IMG/VR virus record: IMGVR_UViG_2778261355_000012
DNA: 15,693 nt
From: a virus
Lineage: Duplodnaviria; Heunggongvirae; Uroviricota; Caudoviricetes
Reading direction: 5' to 3' (one strand)
The notes below the pieces were generated by a model that worked only from the letters and a program-made list of their open reading frames with translations, ran no database searches and was not told the origin of the DNA. How positions within the stretch are numbered: the stretch's first letter is position 1; each line of letters starts with the position of its first letter. Below are positions 8,020 through 15,693 of this stretch, in pieces. A program made the translations under genes and the position numbers.

Positions 8020-8268
8020 TTATTGTTTCACTGGCTCCCGCATTCTGCGTCTTATTTTCCACAAATATTCGATCATCGCTTCCACCTGCTCACGGTTGGT
8101 TGCGAAAATTTCCCCGGTCAGTGAGCTACGCAGAAAATCATGATGATCCACAAAAAATAACGCATCGGAAGAAAGCAACCGACGATATTTTTTTGCTGTC
8201 GTGGTTTCCAGATCATCAAAACCATGAAGCTTTTTATGTTGCTGAACTTCTTCGAATGTCACTGGCAT
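8020..8268 (-). CDS. hypothetical protein (82 aa)
   Basis: Start overlaps the 3' end of the FinO-like gene by 10 nt; followed by the terminator; no motif recognised. Confidence 0.45.
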   Translation of the reverse strand: MPVTFEEVQQHKKLHGFDDLETTTAKKYRRLLSSDALFFVDHHDFLRSSLTGEIFATNREQVEAMIEYLWKIRRRMREPVKQ

Positions 8269-8789
8269 GTATCCCCCTTTGCTGCCCGGCGCTGGCGCTT
8301 GTGCTTCTCATTCAGCACCATCAGCCGTGTTTCTGCCTCCTGCTGTTCCTGTGGTGTCACTTCCCCACATGGCTGGCCTTTCAGGTCGTAACGTGCGCCA
8401 CCAGCTATCAGGGCGCGGTAATAGCGCGGAGACTGCGCATAGGATGCCAGCGTCGCACGTAATACCCCCGACCCGAATGCCAGCCCCCTGACGGCGATAT
8501 CCTGCATCAGGTCGTCGAATATCCCCACCTTAAGCGGCTTCGGTGCTTTATGGCTGAATAAGTCAGGCCACATCTCAGTGAGGCGGTTAACGCGTCGGCG
8601 GTTTTTGCGCTGCCTTTTGGTCATATGCTGCCACGGTGTCGCCCCTGTGGGCTTCTGCTGTGCGTTCTGATTGCCGGGTATCACTTTATGCGCCGATGTG
8701 GTTTTATCCTGCTCTTGCGCCGCCTGCGTCGTTTTCTGCGGCGTGCCGTAAATGCCTTTCGGCTTCCGGTTAATGGTCAGCGTTGTCAT
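8259..8789 (-). CDS. ProQ/FinO-domain RNA-binding protein
   Basis: Residues ~70-155 (WPDLFSHKAPKPLKVGIFDDLMQDIA...VLRATLASYAQSPRYYRALIAGGARYDLKGQPCGEVTPQEQ) align by eye with the E. coli ProQ N-terminal domain (FPHCF...PLKIGIFQDL...[35 protein letters not shown]); basic, low-complexity N-terminus. Confidence 0.8.
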   Translation of the reverse strand: MTTLTINRKPKGIYGTPQKTTQAAQEQDKTTSAHKVIPGNQNAQQKPTGATPWQHMTKRQRKNRRRVNRLTEMWPDLFSHKAPKPLKVGIFDDLMQDIAVRGLAFGSGVLRATLASYAQSPRYYRALIAGGARYDLKGQPCGEVTPQEQQEAETRLMVLNEKHKRQRRAAKGDTCQ

Positions 8790-9493: not shown

Positions 9494-9540
9494 AGGCTTT
9501 ACCTCACAGCAATAAAATAAAATTTTTGCATTTTAACCCT

Positions 9541-9770
9541 TCACCTGTTCACCTTTTGAGATTTTCCCTTTTTATTCATAATGTTAAGGGGTGAACAGTT
9601 TCACAAAAACTATTCACCAACTGTTCACCACTGTTCACCCTTAAAGCTCAATAAATAATCAAAAAGGTGAACAGTGAATAGTTTGGTGAACAGTTCACAA
9701 ATAACTGTTCACCCTATAATGTACTGATATAAAAGATATTTATCACAGGGTGAACAGTGGTGAACAGTTA
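9541..9770. repeat. iteron field: at least 9 perfect copies of TGTTCACC / GGTGAACA in both orientations plus variants, with an adjacent AT-rich tract; candidate replication origin
   Basis: Read directly: perfect octamers at ~9546, 9590, 9622, 9632, 9666, 9685, 9706, 9749, 9759; AT-rich tataatgtactgatataaaagatatttatc at ~9714-9743. The octamer is the one I recall as the phage P4 alpha-binding type I iteron. Confidence 0.8.
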
Positions 9771-9780
9771 TTCCATAAGT

Positions 9781-11884: not shown

Positions 11885-12112
11885 TTATTCCGCGTTTATT
11901 TTTTTATCGTGAATTTCGATCGCTTTATTTAATTCGACGATTACCGTATCGAGTAATGAAATAAACGCACCAGCAAGATTAGATTCACGCTCATCTTCCG
12001 GCGCATCACTTAAACCATCAAGCCAGATAAGAAATATTTGCCTCAAACATTCACTGTTAGTCAGTGCGTTTTCTGCATGGCTCATTGATTTAAAATAACG
12101 GTCATCATGCAT
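11885..12112 (-). CDS. hypothetical protein (75 aa)
   Basis: ATG overlaps the stop of the upstream 67-aa ORF (ATGCATGA); acidic; no motif recognised. Confidence 0.45.
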   Translation of the reverse strand: MHDDRYFKSMSHAENALTNSECLRQIFLIWLDGLSDAPEDERESNLAGAFISLLDTVIVELNKAIEIHDKKINAE

Positions 12113-12308
12113 GGCGCACCCCCTGACGAATACGGGCGGCGAATACCATCACGCAGTCATCAGGAGATTGCTGGCGTGCTTCCTGTTCGCTGGTGGCCTC
12201 AATGGTAATCACGCGCGGTTGTGCCGTGCTCAGGGCGATAAAACGCCAGATGTATTTATTCAGGTTGTACGAGTCCCGCCCTTGCGGGTGTCTGGTATAA
12301 TTTCTCAT
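12105..12308 (-). CDS. hypothetical protein (67 aa), first gene of the replication-side operon
   Basis: Track ORF 12105..13013 trimmed to ATG at 12308 with GAGGT RBS 5 nt upstream; the long N-terminal extension is Ser/Cys-rich and antisense to plus-strand genes. Confidence 0.45.
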   Translation of the reverse strand: MRNYTRHPQGRDSYNLNKYIWRFIALSTAQPRVITIEATSEQEARQQSPDDCVMVFAARIRQGVRHA

Positions 12309-12389
12309 AGCTACCTCGATACTCTCGTTATCGTTGGTGGTTAGACGCCCTGCATGTGTTGCGAGCACTGCGGGGCGTTGCTCTTTTAG

Positions 12390-12435
12390 GTGTATTTCAC
12401 CTTTGCTTTTTAATTTACTCACTGGTGAAATACAC
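12390..12435. promoter_or_regulatory. perfect 12-bp inverted repeat GTGTATTTCACC-N22-GGTGAAATACAC in a divergent promoter region (candidate operator)
   Basis: Read directly; lies in the ~190-bp gap between the minus-strand 67-aa gene start and the plus-strand 59-aa gene start; TATACT -10-like hexamer downstream at ~12466. Confidence 0.5.
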
Positions 12436-12501
12436 TTCAAGCCTTTTTTTATCATTTTTTTTGCGTATACTGACATACACCAATTTTTAGGAGATCCAGA
12501 A

Positions 12502-12681
12502 ATGGCAACTGGTGCAAAGAACGCAAAATCACAAATGACAACTGTCAGAATCCCACATGAAGTAATGGATGATATTGAGCAACTTAAAGAACCTGGCGAA
12601 AGTACCGCTGGTTTTTTAGTTACTGCCGCAAAAGGCGAGATCAAACGCCGCCAGCGTCGCAAGGCCAAAGAGCAGGAGTAA
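12502..12681 (+). CDS. small putative DNA-binding protein (59 aa, possibly ribbon-helix-helix-like)
   Basis: Track ORF 12334..12681 trimmed to ATG at 12502 with AGGAG RBS ~9 nt upstream; MATGAKNAKSQMTTVRIPHEVMDDIEQLKEPGE... then a basic tail; the RHH assignment is a weak guess. Confidence 0.5.
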   Translation: MATGAKNAKSQMTTVRIPHEVMDDIEQLKEPGESTAGFLVTAAKGEIKRRQRRKAKEQE

Positions 12682-12738
12682 CCATCACCAGCGCCGTGGT
12701 GTGAGTAACTACGGCGCATTGCTATGCAGGACAACACA

Positions 12739-12912
12739 ATGACCGATAAAGAATTGACCAAAACATTATCACCGGCACGGAAAAGACGGCGCAGAAAGAT
12801 AGAGCATGAATCAGAAAGATTCGCGCCATGTGCTTTTGCCCTTGAGCAATTCCTTAAAGAGCACAGGAAAAAGCTCTCGTTGCAAACCTTGGAACGAACC
12901 AAATCTGACTGA
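12739..12912 (+). CDS. hypothetical basic protein (57 aa; alternative start 12724)
   Basis: Follows the 59-aa gene on the same strand and is followed by a strong terminator; arginine-rich (ARKRRRRK). Confidence 0.4.
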   Translation: MTDKELTKTLSPARKRRRRKIEHESERFAPCAFALEQFLKEHRKKLSLQTLERTKSD

Positions 12913-12976
12913 TCACATTGCCCACCAGCCAGCAAATCACTATGATGTTCGGGCTTATGTTTAGTGTTTTCCCATT

Positions 12977-13008
12977 GGCGACCGCCCCCGGTCGCCTTTG
13001 TTTTATGT
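12977..13008 (+). terminator. rho-independent terminator after the plus-strand cassette
   Basis: GGCGACCG-cccc-CGGTCGCC perfect 8-bp GC stem followed by TTTGTTTT on the plus strand; prevents read-through antisense into alpA. Confidence 0.7.
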
Positions 13009-13022
13009 GTCATAACTCCCCC

Positions 13023-13307
13023 TTATGCAGCTTTCTTACCGTACGGATTATTGACTTTATCTACAGCAGGTGGGTTACGAACCCACCAAAGCACATCAGA
13101 GAGAAGCCACGCACAGCTATTGCGCCCGAAATGACAACGAGGCGGGAAACGCCCTTCATTTTCCATTTTGAAGCGAGTTGAGCGCGACAGACTGGTAATT
13201 TCCTGGCATTCCTTTTCACGGATACGGCGATCAAATTCAAAACCGTATTCTTCAAGAAGCGCCCGGCGTTGTTCTGGAGTTGGGGGAATGAATGTGGTTT
13301 TTGTCAT
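13023..13307 (-). CDS. alpA: AlpA-family transcriptional regulator (prophage CP4-57-type)
   Basis: Track ORF trimmed to ATG at 13307 with GGAGG RBS; HTH segment EITSLSRSTRFKMENEGRFPP...WLLSDVLWWV matches the AlpA pattern from memory. Confidence 0.8.
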   Translation of the reverse strand: MTKTTFIPPTPEQRRALLEEYGFEFDRRIREKECQEITSLSRSTRFKMENEGRFPPRCHFGRNSCAWLLSDVLWWVRNPPAVDKVNNPYGKKAA

Positions 13308-13389
13308 ATTGCCTCCACTGTATCTATGCTTGCGGAGGCTATTTTGCAATCTTTAATACTGGATTAAAACACAGTAGTAATCATAGAAA

Positions 13390-13422
13390 CATACTGATAA
13401 TGCTTATAAATATATCAGTATG
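13390..13422. promoter_or_regulatory. 10-bp inverted repeat CATACTGATA-N13-TATCAGTATG between the 309-aa gene and alpA
   Basis: Read directly; could be a weak AT-rich terminator for the 309-aa gene or an operator for the alpA promoter. Confidence 0.35.
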
Positions 13423-13444
13423 CTTAGGAGTATATGAGTAAGGC

Positions 13445-14374
13445 TTACTGCGATCTTTCACTCGGCCTCTTATGAGCATTACTTAAAATTGCTGCTATTT
13501 TTGTTTCTGTTTTTATTGGCAATTCACTATTAATGAACCAATCAGGTCTGGCGATCAACTCACGAGCCCAAGCAGAATAGTTAATCGTTCCATCGTTTTT
13601 TCTGCAGGTCTCATTAAAAGTATTTTGTTGCTCTTCTTTAAAACGCATAGCAACCATTAAAATTTGCTCTCGATTTCTTGCATGTCTTTCAGCAGAATGG
13701 TGCACAATTTCATTGCCATTCATCTTGTGAGGTTCTACAGATTCAAAATTATCTGTTAGCGTAAAATAATCGCCACCACAGTCAAGAAGTCGCCTTATAT
13801 CATGAGCGGTAATCCACAAGTCATTTATAGAAATATTATTCTTTAATATTTGATCGTCTTCTTCATCATAATCACTATCTTCACCAACCATTAAAAGTTG
13901 TACGGCAGGATTATCAGTTTCTGGATGACACGGGGTTAATTCAAAACCACTTAGGGAATACTCTCCAAAATTTTGTAGCTCTTCCAGCCCACTCCAAAGA
14001 CGCCACAATCCATAAGCCCTACCAATAGAGCTAAAGCATCCGTTTTCTGAGTCTTGACCGAATAAAGGCGCGTGTATAGTTTCATCTGTCTCCTCATTAT
14101 AATTGTATCTGAAAAGATGAAATCTGGAGTATTCCGTAATATTGTTCCCCATCAGTGATGTGGTCGATTTTGCATTTCTGGTATCAAACCAAGCAGTTGC
14201 AGACTCGCTATCAGTATTCATATATAAAACAGCGCGAGCATCAAATAAATTTAGGCATAAAGCTATTTTTTTAGTAACACCTAAATTCACGAGATCGCTA
14301 ATCTCGCAACCCAGCAATCTTGATGCACGTTCAATGTTGCAATACTGAAAAGGAATTTTAATGTCGTTAGCCAT
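13445..14374 (-). CDS. hypothetical protein (309 aa), AT-rich cargo gene between int and alpA
   Basis: Long clean ORF with GAGGG RBS 6 nt upstream; markedly lower GC than flanking genes (by eye); acidic central stretch EDSDYDEEDDQ; no domain recognised. Confidence 0.7.
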   Translation of the reverse strand: MANDIKIPFQYCNIERASRLLGCEISDLVNLGVTKKIALCLNLFDARAVLYMNTDSESATAWFDTRNAKSTTSLMGNNITEYSRFHLFRYNYNEETDETIHAPLFGQDSENGCFSSIGRAYGLWRLWSGLEELQNFGEYSLSGFELTPCHPETDNPAVQLLMVGEDSDYDEEDDQILKNNISINDLWITAHDIRRLLDCGGDYFTLTDNFESVEPHKMNGNEIVHHSAERHARNREQILMVAMRFKEEQQNTFNETCRKNDGTINYSAWARELIARPDWFINSELPIKTETKIAAILSNAHKRPSERSQ

Positions 14375-14472
14375 TGCGCTACCCTCAACGCCCTAAATAC
14401 TTTACGAGCCAGGCGGGTAGGGTTTCCCGCTTTTCGGTTGGCCGACCTATGCCCGTAATATCAGTTTAACCT

Positions 14473-15693
14473 CTATATCGATACAGGTAACAGCACCACA
14501 TTTTGATGATTACCCGCCAGAAGTTCTAATCGGCCATACCACTTATTCAACGCATCCATTTTCTCAGGTAAGTACAGACTACGGTTATAAATAGCCATCA
14601 CCCCCGGCAATGCATGACCAAGTAAAAGCTCTACAATATGTGGCGCAATACCCATATTATTTAAACCTGTAGAAAATGTTCTGCGCAAATCGTGAAGCGT
14701 CCATGGCTCATTATGATGAAAATCTTTGTATAGCCTACGCCCTTTAAGCGAAGCAGCCTGGCGGGAACGTTCTTCACCCAGTACAATTCCTGTTTTTCCC
14801 GTTTCCTTTTTTAGATCCTCAATCCATGGGCGAATGCCCTCTGGAATTGGACGAACTATTTTTTCACGAGTTTTGCTGTGTTCTTTAGGAACCGTCCAAA
14901 TCCATGACTGAAAATCCCATTCACTCCACCGGGATAATCTTACTTCCATTGTTCGCGCCCCAAACAGCACAAGCAACTTAAGCAGACGAAGATAATAAAA
15001 TTGCTGTTCATCGCTATAAGTACACCGCCATACATCAGCTAACTCACTATCTGACAGCACCCTATCACGCTGCCCCGATGGTTGCCCTACATCCTGGATT
15101 GTCATAAAAGCCAGGGCATCACATGAGGCATAACGGCGAACCTTGCAGAATCTTAAGGCCTGTTTACAAATCTGGAACATTCGCCCGGCAGTGATTGGCC
15201 TGGACTGGTTAATTTCATCAAAACATGCCACCCAGTGACGCGTTTCACACCGGGATAACGGATAGTGGCCAAGACGCGGATAAATATGCTTACGTAATTG
15301 CGCCCGCACCAGTTCCTCGTCACTACGTTTTTTTCTTGCGTAATGAATTAGCCAATATTCAAGGGCATCATGGACAGTTACGGGGTTAAGGTTTTCTTCT
15401 GCGCTAAGTTCTAATTCAAGTCGTGGATTCAGCCCGTCCGCATACCATTTTCGGCATAGTTCCCTCTTCTCCCTAGCCATTTTCAACGACATGTCAGGGT
15501 AACGCCCAAGAACAATGCGCTCTAACTTGCTCCCACGCCCACCAAGACGATAAGAGAAAACCCAACTAATGCATCCCATCATGGATACTTTGATGCTTAA
15601 TCCTTCACCATCCGCAATGGTAATTACTGAATCCCGCTTTACGCCGAGAAGCGATCTTAATTTTTTATCACTCAGTTTGTTTGTGCCAGCCAC
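14473..15693 (-). CDS. int: tyrosine integrase, P4-type (5' end at window edge)
   Basis: N-terminal P4-integrase-type arm-binding pattern (KLSDKKLRSLL...DGEGLSIKV...WVFSYRLGG...LGRYPDMSLKMAREKR); C-terminal catalytic signature HDLRRTF...LLGH...AIYNRSLY. First codon is GTG exactly at the edge, so it is either a GTG start or slightly truncated. Confidence 0.92.
   Translation of the reverse strand: MAGTNKLSDKKLRSLLGVKRDSVITIADGEGLSIKVSMMGCISWVFSYRLGGRGSKLERIVLGRYPDMSLKMAREKRELCRKWYADGLNPRLELELSAEENLNPVTVHDALEYWLIHYARKKRSDEELVRAQLRKHIYPRLGHYPLSRCETRHWVACFDEINQSRPITAGRMFQICKQALRFCKVRRYASCDALAFMTIQDVGQPSGQRDRVLSDSELADVWRCTYSDEQQFYYLRLLKLLVLFGARTMEVRLSRWSEWDFQSWIWTVPKEHSKTREKIVRPIPEGIRPWIEDLKKETGKTGIVLGEERSRQAASLKGRRLYKDFHHNEPWTLHDLRRTFSTGLNNMGIAPHIVELLLGHALPGVMAIYNRSLYLPEKMDALNKWYGRLELLAGNHQNVVLLPVSI

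What the first reader, a model, noticed from the sequence alone, without database searches (positions are those of the whole stretch)
13445..14374. AT-rich 309-aa orphan gene in the integrase-proximal cargo position
This is the only gene in the island with clearly lower GC than its neighbours, which suggests separate horizontal acquisition. It sits between int and alpA, a position where satellites commonly carry accessory or anti-phage cargo. I could not assign any domain; an acidic stretch EDSDYDEEDDQ is the only distinctive feature. It is a candidate single-gene defense or helper-interference protein, or alternatively a repressor of the island.
Basis: partly seen in the sequence, partly recalled or inferred. 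Interest (0 to 1): 0.75.

Follow-up and report, generated by a model that had tools for sequence, protein, structure and literature searches.

The report
Integrase-coupled accessory gene of a phage satellite
The AT-rich 309-codon gene is not an orphan: it belongs to a large unnamed protein family that nearly always fills the one-gene slot between the integrase and alpA genes of phage satellites, so it probably helps the island cut itself out rather than being defence cargo.

Summary
The ORF at 13445-14374 (- strand) encodes 309 aa with GC 0.375 and GC3 0.30. That is 4 sd below every other 930-nt window, and the ORF lies between int and alpA of an E. coli capsid-forming PICI.

- **Not an orphan.** A profile search finds more than 335 cluster representatives. 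None is in Pfam; PHROG 7144 lists the family as unknown function.
- **Fixed position.** Every locus with enough flanking sequence, across 11 genera plus metagenomic and viral contigs, reads int - this family - alpA.
- **Low GC is a family trait** in every host, not a sign of recent acquisition.
- **Real, constrained gene.** dN/dS is 0.08.
- **Swapped as a cassette.** Two E. coli islands share int at 99% and alpA at 98%, but this gene at 22%.
- **Known RNA leader.** The cassette sits directly behind Rfam RF02996 (int-alpA RNA).
- **Structure.** The model shows an N-terminal MerR/Xis/AlpA-like winged helix and otherwise no known fold.
- **No defence-model hit.**
- **Closest tested analogue.** iolg of Vibrio PICMI satellites occupies the same slot and is essential for excision.

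Best reading: an integrase-coupled excision/induction accessory factor (confidence 0.45). Defence cargo and a helper-sensing regulator remain open.

The parts
14473..15693 (-). int: P4-type tyrosine integrase (406 aa), first gene of the module; the window ends at its start codon
   Evidence: ORF. RefSeq annotates it as a tyrosine-type recombinase. Homologues at 51-80% identity carry Pfam Arm-DNA-bind_3 and Phage_integrase.
14391..14457 (-). int-alpA RNA motif (Rfam RF02996) in the 98-nt int-X spacer. It has three helices, and the loop AAACCCUA can pair with the downstream UAGGG. It acts as the 5' leader of the gene.
   Evidence: cmscan gives 55.2 bits against a gathering score of 35.8, E 2.6e-9. 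The motif is found directly upstream of homologues in Morganella, Photorhabdus, Arsenophonus and a metagenomic contig. Covariation: 9 pairs change on both sides, and 0 of 500 shuffles reach the observed score. The pseudoknot is conserved but shows no covariation.
14372..14386 (-). Shine-Dalgarno GAGGG and ATG start of the gene; the conserved 3' end of the leader
   Evidence: Sequence. Homology among alleles runs up to the start codon and stops there.
13445..14374 (-). The gene ('X', 309 aa, WP_032199958.1): a member of an unnamed superfamily of int-alpA slot proteins (PHROG 7144)
   Evidence: dN/dS is 0.076 against the fis-site allele.
14180..14353 (-). N-terminal winged-helix-like domain (aa 8-65): strand, helix, helix, then a beta-hairpin wing. 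It is the part most conserved across the whole superfamily.
13850..13882 (-). Acidic linker EDSDYDEEDDQ, predicted disordered and variable in the family
   Evidence: pLDDT is below 50 for residues 166-178. This is a variable, gapped region of alignment A1.
13448..13699 (-). C-terminal helical domain (aa 226-309), basic with pI 9.0. It is the best-conserved part within the close family and carries invariant H225, R230, H231, N234, R235, E236, C257, K259, R271, R276 and K288.
   Evidence: No structural match in PDB or BFVD.
13387..13425 (-). Hairpin CATACTGATA-N13-TATCAGTATG followed by TTTCT, immediately after the stop codon and overlapping a 20-nt tandem repeat. It is terminator-like and travels with the gene as part of the cassette.
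   Evidence: Each allele carries its own hairpin of different sequence at this place. Homology between alleles resumes only 15-35 nt before the alpA start.
13311..13339 (-). Hairpin GCCTCC-N17-GGAGGC whose 3' arm is the Shine-Dalgarno of alpA; the conserved 3' flank of the cassette
   Evidence: The equivalent hairpin is present, with different stem sequences, in all ten spacers folded. No alignment-based consensus could be obtained.
13023..13307 (-). alpA: AlpA-family regulator (94 aa), master activator of Gram-negative PICIs
   Evidence: RefSeq annotation. Homologues at 61-70% identity carry Pfam Phage_AlpA. Role taken from PMC6092414.

Best explanation
The gene encodes an integrase-coupled accessory protein of the satellite's integration/excision module. 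It is the enterobacterial counterpart of the 'int-overlapping / int-contiguous gene' (iolg/icg) class described in Vibrio PICMI satellites.

Proposed mechanism:
1. It is co-transcribed with int.
2. Its translation is set by the structured int-alpA RNA leader. In other alleles a 4-nt ATGA overlap with int does this job instead.
3. When the helper phage switches on alpA, the protein works with Int and AlpA to excise or activate the island.
4. The conserved N-terminal winged-helix-like domain and the basic C-terminal domain provide the contact with DNA or with Int/AlpA.
5. The divergent middle part differs between alleles.

Shown: family membership, fixed synteny, purifying selection, cassette boundaries, the RNA leader and the fold of the N-terminus. 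Inferred: co-transcription with int, any DNA or protein contacts, and the role in excision. The excision role is borrowed from one experiment on a positional analogue.
For: - **Fixed synteny.** All loci with enough flank to show context have the order int - X - alpA on one strand. They cover E. coli (three attachment sites), Morganella, Photorhabdus, Arsenophonus, Xenorhabdus, Klebsiella, Aeromonas, metagenomic contigs and 11 IMG/VR contigs. They include elements with P4-type DUF927 primases or Ogr/Delta.
- **One gene per slot.** The slot almost always holds exactly one gene of 230-330 aa. In 18 fis-site viral contigs with both int and alpA, 11 carry X-family genes, 5 carry DUF6387 and 2 are empty.
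- **Physical coupling to int.** Some alleles overlap int by 4 nt (L010, L012 and most IMG/VR loci). Others have a 91-98 nt spacer filled by RF02996. No promoter-like site lies in the spacer.
- **Purifying selection.** dN/dS is 0.076 and is uniform over the domains.
- **Fold.** The N-terminal fold is that of excisionases and AlpA.
- **Experimental precedent.** In PICMI115 the gene in this slot, iolg, is required together with int and alpA for helper-induced excision, packaging and transfer, and the mutant is complemented by int/iolg. In that study 25 of 35 PICMI subfamilies carry such a gene, falling into 13 families of unknown function (PMC10803314).
Against: - Homology to PICMI IOLG could not be tested because no sequence was obtainable.
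- The gene is swapped for alleles only 16-30% identical while int and alpA stay 98-99% identical. That is not expected for a protein that must fit Int and AlpA closely.
- Some islands lack any slot gene, and an unrelated family, DUF6387, can take the place.
- EcCICFT073 studies name only int, alpA and pri as essential.
Confidence: 0.45

Rival explanations
1. Helper-sensing regulator ('immunity cassette'). The conserved N-terminal domain anchors the protein at the island's control region or on AlpA. The hypervariable remainder recognises a helper-phage or host signal. Each allele would therefore decide which phage can switch on alpA and excision, making it a functional analogue of the Stl/Rpr repressors of Gram-positive PICIs.
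For: - Whether Gram-negative PICIs have a repressor is stated to be unclear, and the phage inducer of alpA is unknown (PMC6092414).
- The gene sits where stl sits in SaPIs, between int and the regulator.
- Alleles are exchanged as cassettes between unchanged int and alpA. This suggests the variable part faces something outside the island.
- The N-terminus is more conserved than the rest.
- The cassette includes about 100 nt upstream of alpA with allele-specific inverted repeats.
- alpA carries an SD-sequestering hairpin, so it is tightly controlled.
Against: - The gene is co-directional with alpA, not divergent as stl is.
- The inverted repeats have variable loop lengths and a T-rich tail, like terminators rather than operators.
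- The N-terminal domain is acidic.
- Islands without the gene exist.
- In PICMI115, loss of iolg abolishes excision rather than derepressing it.
Confidence: 0.2
2. Single-gene anti-phage defence or helper-interference cargo. This is the first reader's main idea: the protein protects the host or blocks competing phages, and is carried in the int-proximal accessory region.
For: - PICIs are reported to carry immune systems at their 5' and 3' ends (PMC11364771), and accessory genes between int and the regulator (PMC10085698).
- The gene is AT-rich.
- This allele is rare, found in 12 of 5426 E. coli genomes.
- Alleles are many, very divergent and exchanged as cassettes.
- A BREX-1 system follows the same int and leader in strain Ec1120.
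Against: - No PADLOC model matches this protein or four other alleles.
- The family was never seen outside the int-X-alpA context, unlike defence genes, which move between hotspots and element types.
- There is always one gene of similar size, coupled to int by overlap or leader.
- Synteny is kept down to 16-28% identity.
- The tested positional analogue has a life-cycle function.
Confidence: 0.15
3. Lysogeny stabiliser or exclusion factor. The protein is made constitutively with Int. It either restrains Int-mediated excision until AlpA appears, or blocks integration or induction of competing satellites that use the same site.
For: - Expression is coupled to int.
- Allelic diversity occurs at one attachment site, as expected for incompatibility determinants.
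- The protein is acidic with a poly-acidic linker, which could act by protein binding or DNA mimicry.
Against: - There is no direct evidence.
- The PICMI iolg mutant loses excision rather than gaining it.
- Tandem satellites at one site are known (PMC10111431).
Confidence: 0.08

Closest known systems
iolg / icg (integrase-overlapping or integrase-contiguous gene) of PICMI satellites of Vibrionaceae (Barcia-Cruz et al. 2024, PMC10803314)
   Same: Same slot and strand (int - gene - alpA). A single gene tied to int; remote alleles of the family studied here have the same ATGA overlap. Many very divergent families of unknown function, and a few elements with an empty slot. iolg is essential for excision together with int and alpA.
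   Different: The window's gene is separated from int by a 98-nt structured RNA leader rather than overlapping it. The host is Enterobacterales and the element is a 15-kb capsid-forming PICI, not a 6-kb minimalist island. Sequence homology to PICMI115 IOLG is untested, and no function has been tested for this family.
Recombination directionality factors / excisionases of the winged-helix class (lambda and Pukovnik Xis, Tn916 Xis, TorI, AlpA, RdfS)
   Different: The protein is five times longer and has three further regions of unknown fold. It has no sequence-profile similarity to AlpA or to Pfam HTH_17, MerR or Phage_AlpA. The domain is acidic. The island already has AlpA as its presumed excisionase/activator.
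Stl / Rpr master repressors of Gram-positive PICIs (SaPIs)
   Same: Located between int and the regulatory gene. About 250-300 aa, with an N-terminal helix-turn-helix-type domain and a highly variable remainder. Many alleles.
   Different: Stl is transcribed divergently from its target promoter and its mutants are derepressed. The gene here is co-directional with alpA, operators are not evident, and the only tested positional analogue is needed for excision rather than repressing it.
Rfam RF02996 int-alpA RNA (for the leader)
   Same: Full-length match above the gathering score, with covariation in all three helices.
   Different: Rfam lists it as an sRNA named after the int and alpA neighbours. 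In all 10 loci where an X allele follows the motif, it abuts the Shine-Dalgarno and start codon of that allele; alpA begins more than 0.8 kb further on. In the eleventh copy, L024, the cassette is replaced. The motif therefore looks like a cis-acting 5' leader of this gene.
DUF6387 (Pfam PF19924)
   Same: Occupies the same slot in other fis-site satellites. It overlaps int by 1-4 nt, is 281-290 aa and is AT-rich.
   Different: No detectable homology (hhalign probability below 1%) and a different N-terminal motif.

Membership tests
Unnamed superfamily of int-alpA slot proteins (PHROG 7144) | Full-length sequence similarity to the family profile | tested here: met
   phrog_7144 matches with E 4.7e-36 over residues 3-301 of 309. 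There are 21 close homologues and 335 representatives at E<=1e-3. E. coli alleles at 16-30% identity hit the profile at E 1e-24 to 1e-72. The O157 allele matches by hhalign at 96.6% probability.
Unnamed superfamily of int-alpA slot proteins (PHROG 7144) | Position directly downstream of a P4-type integrase and upstream of alpA, same strand | tested here: met
   True for the window and for every other locus with enough flank.
iolg/icg class of PICMI satellites | Single gene between int and alpA, overlapping int by 1-13 nt (iolg) or contiguous with it (icg) | tested here: met
   The window's gene is contiguous with int, with a 98-nt spacer. Family members in L010, L012 and 10 of the 11 X-family IMG/VR loci overlap int by 1-4 nt.
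iolg/icg class of PICMI satellites | Required for helper-induced excision | not testable with these tools
   Known only for PICMI115 (PMC10803314). Testing it here needs a deletion mutant of this island.
iolg/icg class of PICMI satellites | Sequence homology to one of the 13 PICMI IOLG/ICG families | not testable with these tools
   No IOLG sequence is held in the paper's files. Searches reached Aeromonas but not Vibrionaceae. The fis-site viral contigs were all enterobacterial-like in GC.
Winged-helix excisionase / MerR / AlpA DNA-binding domains | Strand-helix-helix-wing fold | tested here: inconclusive
Winged-helix excisionase / MerR / AlpA DNA-binding domains | Sequence-profile match (Pfam HTH_17, MerR, Phage_AlpA) or similarity to the island's own AlpA | tested here: not met
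   No Pfam hit at E<=10, and none in 60 family members. hhalign against an AlpA alignment gives probability 1%.
Winged-helix excisionase / MerR / AlpA DNA-binding domains | Basic DNA-contacting surface | tested here: not met
   The domain has pI 4.7, with 6 K+R against 8 D+E. This is composition only; the surface was not analysed.
Known anti-phage defence systems | Match to a defence-protein model | tested here: not met
   PADLOC-DB gave 0 hits at E<=10 for this protein and nothing meaningful for four other alleles or for DUF6387.
Known anti-phage defence systems | Phage protection when expressed | not testable with these tools
   Needs plaque assays.
Stl/Rpr-type PICI master repressor | Divergent transcription from the regulated promoter, with operator repeats | tested here: not met
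   The gene is co-directional with alpA. The repeats after the stop codon behave like terminator hairpins with variable loops.
Rfam RF02996 int-alpA RNA (leader) | Score at or above the gathering threshold, with helices supported by covariation | tested here: met
   55.2 bits against 35.8. 88.6% of cells are paired, 9 pairs carry compensatory changes, and 0 of 500 shuffles reach the observed value.
Capsid-forming PICI (the island as a whole) | Has int, alpA, primase, HK97 capsid, protease, portal, connector, HNH, terS and terL; no tail or lysis genes; about 15 kb at a dedicated site | tested here: met
   RefSeq annotation of the identical region between hpt and gcd, compared with the description in 10.1101/2022.09.08.507074.

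The most novel reading that the evidence does not exclude
The int-alpA slot proteins are the missing specificity determinants of Gram-negative phage satellites. In this reading they form a hypervariable, cassette-exchanged sensor family, with DUF6387 as a non-homologous alternative. A conserved winged-helix anchor docks on the Int/AlpA machinery or its DNA, and the variable body reads a helper-phage cue. This would gate excision and decide which phages can mobilise a given island. The orphan int-alpA RNA motif would be the riboregulator that sets the level of this protein relative to integrase.
Probability: 0.15. Interest if true: 0.8.

Novelty: new variant of a known kind. Interest (0 to 1): 0.5.

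Why it matters
How Gram-negative PICIs stay quiescent and how a helper phage triggers their excision is an open question. The field names only int, alpA and pri as essential, states that a repressor is 'unclear', and has not identified the inducer (PMC6092414). The PICMI study asks how AlpA, Int 'and probably IOLG' cooperate (PMC10803314).

This work makes three points that bear on that question:
- One large, unannotated protein superfamily fills the int-alpA slot across enterobacterial PICIs, capsid-forming PICIs and elements with P4-type primase or Ogr/Delta genes.
- That gene is exchanged as a precise cassette between a conserved RNA leader and a conserved alpA leader.
- The orphan Rfam motif int-alpA is its 5' leader.

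Together these give a defined third component of the integration module, a natural set of alleles for swap experiments, and a likely function for an RNA motif that has had none since 2017. If the protein turns out to be ordinary defence cargo, the finding loses most of this value.

Tried and rejected
- **Sequence libraries.** Pfam, NCBIfam and PADLOC scans of the protein gave nothing. Pfam on 60 diverse members gave nothing. A profile against PDB sequences gave only a chance hit.
- **Structure searches.** Foldseek against BFVD and PDB gave no match with E<0.1; repeated weak cereblon hits were discarded as noise. The AFDB library was unavailable.
- **AlpA paralogue or internal duplication.** The idea that the N-terminal domain is a paralogue of AlpA, or that residues 180-215 repeat the N-terminal motif, was rejected by hhalign (probability about 1%).
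- **Operators.** The inverted repeats after the stop codon were first read as operators. They are more likely terminators, because each allele has its own hairpin with a different loop length followed by a T-rich tail.
- **Low GC as recent transfer.** Rejected because it holds in all hosts and all alleles.
- **Vibrio IOLG sequence.** Three routes failed: the paper's supplements, two protein searches and a scan of viral contigs for the fis attachment sequence.
- **Genome scan.** The scan with the close alignment found only four Xenorhabdus loci.
- **alpA leader hairpin.** RNAalifold gave no consensus because of register shifts. That feature rests on single-sequence folds only.
- **Empty slot.** The empty slot of L013 was checked for a pseudogene remnant; none was found.
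- **Literature.** The Cell 2022 paper on PICI immune systems is not held in the library.

Full report
**What is there**

The window is identical to a region of E. coli ATCC 43886 between hpt and gcd. On the - strand it reads: int, a hypothetical gene, an AlpA-type regulator, an Icd-like gene, DUF4222, a D5-type primase, SSB, a ProQ/FinO protein, HK97 capsid, protease, portal, connector, HNH, terS and terL. There are no tail or lysis genes. This is the organisation of a capsid-forming PICI.

The gene in question is the ATG ORF at 13445-14374 (-), 309 aa. Its GC is 0.375 and its GC3 0.297. No other 930-nt window of the sequence falls below 0.440, giving z = -4.2. The acidic run EDSDYDEEDDQ is residues 165-175.

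**Not an orphan**

Pfam, NCBIfam and PADLOC give nothing. PHROG 7144 (unknown function) matches over the full length at E 5e-36.

Close homologues at 34-89% identity occur in Enterobacter, Photorhabdus, Arsenophonus and Morganella. A profile search of 1.8 billion cluster representatives finds 335 members at E<=1e-3, mostly 260-340 aa. Named members are all 'hypothetical protein', from Raoultella, Providencia, Xenorhabdus, Enterobacter, Klebsiella, Serratia, Yersinia and Aeromonas. None of 60 diverse members has a Pfam domain.

This particular allele is rare, present in 12 of 5426 complete E. coli genomes.

**Fixed position**

Every locus I could inspect with enough flank has the order int - family member - alpA on one strand:
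- Morganella, in a cf-PICI; 38% identity.
- Photorhabdus, 46%.
- Arsenophonus, 43%; the island lies inside a prophage just after its tape-measure gene.
- A 28%-identical member next to prlC/rsmJ.
- Xenorhabdus.
- Aeromonas, followed by an Ogr/Delta gene.
- Klebsiella/Enterobacter elements with P4-type DUF927 primases.
- Metagenomic contigs.
- The O157:H7 PICI at cspD, whose 257-aa slot gene is a remote homologue (hhalign 96.6%, E 6e-10).

Identities to the window for int/X/alpA are 58/38/63, 52/46/70, 56/43/61, 51/28/70 and 80/42/64. X is always the most divergent of the three and does not track int.

**Low GC is a family trait**

In all seven loci measured, X is the AT-richest gene of its module: GC 0.31-0.40 and GC3 0.20-0.36, against 0.37-0.49 for int and 0.40-0.53 for alpA. 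Further slot genes from viral contigs show the same pattern. Low GC therefore cannot date the arrival of this gene in this island.

**A real gene, exchanged as a cassette**

Against the 88.8%-identical allele of a fis-site cf-PICI, dN/dS is 0.076 and is uniform across domains.

Yet within E. coli the slot holds very different alleles on otherwise identical backbones. L015 and L021 share int at 99% and alpA at 98%, but X at 22% (309 vs 272 aa). The window and L023 share int at 83% and alpA at 81%, but X at 16%. All of these alleles hit the family profile at E 1e-24 to 1e-72.

DNA homology between alleles stops at the X start codon and resumes 15-35 nt before the alpA start codon. The exchanged unit is therefore the ORF plus about 100 nt that contain an allele-specific hairpin.

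**The slot is not exclusive to this family**

A scan of viral contigs for the fis attachment sequence gave 18 loci with both int and alpA:
- 11 carry X-family genes; 10 of them overlap int by 1-4 nt.
- 5 carry an unrelated 281-290-aa gene that is Pfam DUF6387 (hhalign below 1%).
- 2 are empty.

Two E. coli PICIs have a 419-bp AT-rich spacer with no remnant of the gene. In strain Ec1120 a related int and leader are followed by an IS fragment and a BREX-1 system, with no alpA or PICI genes.

**Flanking RNA elements**

The 98-nt int-X spacer contains Rfam RF02996, the int-alpA RNA (55.2 bits against a gathering score of 35.8). The same motif lies directly upstream of X homologues in Morganella, Photorhabdus, Arsenophonus and a contig whose X is only 24% identical.

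In E. coli the leader occurs in 25 genomes. Twelve carry this allele. In all four of the other 13 that were inspected the leader follows a related int, and in three of those an X-family allele comes next.

An alignment of 11 leaders supports the three helices: 9 pairs have compensatory changes, and 0 of 500 shuffles reach the observed score. The conserved 3' end runs through the Shine-Dalgarno to the ATG of X. A possible pseudoknot (loop CCCUA with downstream UAGGG) is conserved but shows no covariation.

No promoter-like site lies in the spacer. X is therefore most simply co-transcribed with int, and the motif looks like its cis-acting leader. Where the motif is absent, X overlaps int by ATGA.

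Downstream, every spacer folds into a hairpin whose 3' arm is the Shine-Dalgarno of alpA. In the O157 element this is a full terminator-like hairpin followed by T7.

**The protein**

An AlphaFold2 model from 20 sequences has mean pLDDT 81.5. It shows five regions:
- An N-terminal strand-helix-helix-wing unit (aa 8-65).
- A beta-rich middle domain.
- A disordered acidic linker.
- A short beta-beta-alpha unit.
- A C-terminal helical domain.

There are three caveats:
- The N-terminal domain is acidic (pI 4.7).
- Only the C-terminal domain is basic (pI 9.0). It is the best-conserved region in the close family and carries many invariant Arg, Lys and His residues.
- There is no profile similarity to AlpA.

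DNA binding is therefore plausible but not shown.

**Comparison with what is known**

Fillol-Salom et al. 2018 state that a global repressor in Gram-negative PICIs is unclear. They also show that alpA is an activator induced by the helper through an unidentified factor.

The HE-PICI study defines an 'integration zone' of Int plus AlpA/HTH_17 and mentions an unknown DNA-binding protein at attP.

Barcia-Cruz et al. 2024 describe the closest case. In Vibrio PICMI115 a gene overlapping int by ATGA (iolg) is required, together with int and alpA, for excision, packaging and transfer. Twenty-one of 35 subfamilies have such a gene, four have a contiguous one, and three have none. These genes fall into 13 families of unknown function.

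The pattern found here matches that description:
- One int-coupled gene per slot.
- Many divergent families.
- Occasional empties.

It extends the description to Enterobacterales and Aeromonas, and to cf-PICIs and elements with P4-type primase or Ogr/Delta genes. Direct homology could not be tested.

**Verdict**

The gene is best read as an integrase-coupled accessory factor of the excision/induction machinery (confidence 0.45). The free exchange of very different alleles between unchanged int and alpA keeps a helper-sensing regulator reading open (0.2). Position, AT-richness and the BREX replacement keep defence cargo open (0.15). A lysogeny stabiliser or exclusion factor is a fourth, weaker rival (0.08).

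It is a new variant of a recently recognised but uncharacterised kind. Its interest is moderate, and comes mainly from three results:
- The family's breadth and fixed position.
- The precise cassette boundaries.
- The link to the orphan int-alpA RNA motif.

Noticed in passing
window 14391-14457 (-): Rfam RF02996 'int-alpA RNA', listed as an sRNA of unknown role. In all 10 loci where an X allele follows it, it sits directly in front of the Shine-Dalgarno and start codon of the slot gene, not in front of alpA. It looks like that gene's cis-acting leader.
   Followed up: yes
window 13311-13339 (-), and the equivalent place in L002, L006, L007, L010, L012, L015, L021-L023: A hairpin whose 3' arm is the Shine-Dalgarno of alpA. 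It is present with different stem sequences in all ten spacers folded, and in the O157 PICI it is followed by T7 like a terminator. It suggests post-transcriptional or antitermination control of the master activator.
   Followed up: partly
window 13387-13439 (-): Two 20-nt tandem repeats and a 10-13-nt inverted repeat (CATACTGATA) lie right after the stop codon. The arrangement is terminator-like and belongs to the exchanged cassette.
   Followed up: partly
window ~9500-9780: An AT-rich (GC 0.37) non-coding stretch upstream of the primase, full of GTGAACAG / CTGTTCAC repeats. It triggered spurious microRNA hits and is probably the island's iteron-type replication origin.
   Followed up: no
window 11885-12112 (-): A 75-aa hypothetical gene with GC 0.373 and GC3 0.316, as AT-rich as the gene under study.
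   Followed up: no
window 8259-8789 (-): The island encodes a ProQ/FinO-family RNA chaperone next to its SSB. This could be relevant to the structured leaders of X and alpA.
   Followed up: no
L024 / L031 (E. coli Ec1120, hpt-gcd site): A related integrase (82% identity) and the int-alpA leader are followed by an IS fragment, BrxR and a complete BREX-1 system plus IS debris, with no alpA or PICI genes. This is a defence island built on the satellite's integration module; homology breaks just after the leader.
   Followed up: partly
L034, L070, L083, L084, L102 (IMG/VR fis-site contigs): An unrelated family, Pfam DUF6387 (281-290 aa, AT-rich), fills the same slot and overlaps int by 1-4 nt.
   Followed up: partly
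L007 and L008 (Arsenophonus nasoniae): Two copies of the island in one genome, each starting immediately after a prophage tape-measure gene. This is the 'helper-embedded PICI' configuration.
   Followed up: no
L016 (E. coli Br_190_kylling) vs window: The same int-X-alpA module (99-100% identity) and capsid genes, but a RepA-type helicase replaces the D5 primase. This shows module shuffling within the island.
   Followed up: partly
window 12105-13013 (-): The 302-aa ORF listed here is probably spurious. RefSeq annotates only an Icd-like gene (12105-12308, -), a YlcI/YnfO gene on the + strand (12502-12681) and a pseudogene fragment.
   Followed up: no
L025 (GenBank PQ569648.1, 'Klebsiella phage P12620-1', 106.5 kb): This is the only 'phage' record with a family member, and it carries it in a 1227-nt ORF - 92-nt gap - X arrangement. 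The upstream 1227-nt ORF is int-sized but is annotated only as hypothetical. The record has only 67 annotated features, so it may include satellite or host DNA.
   Followed up: no
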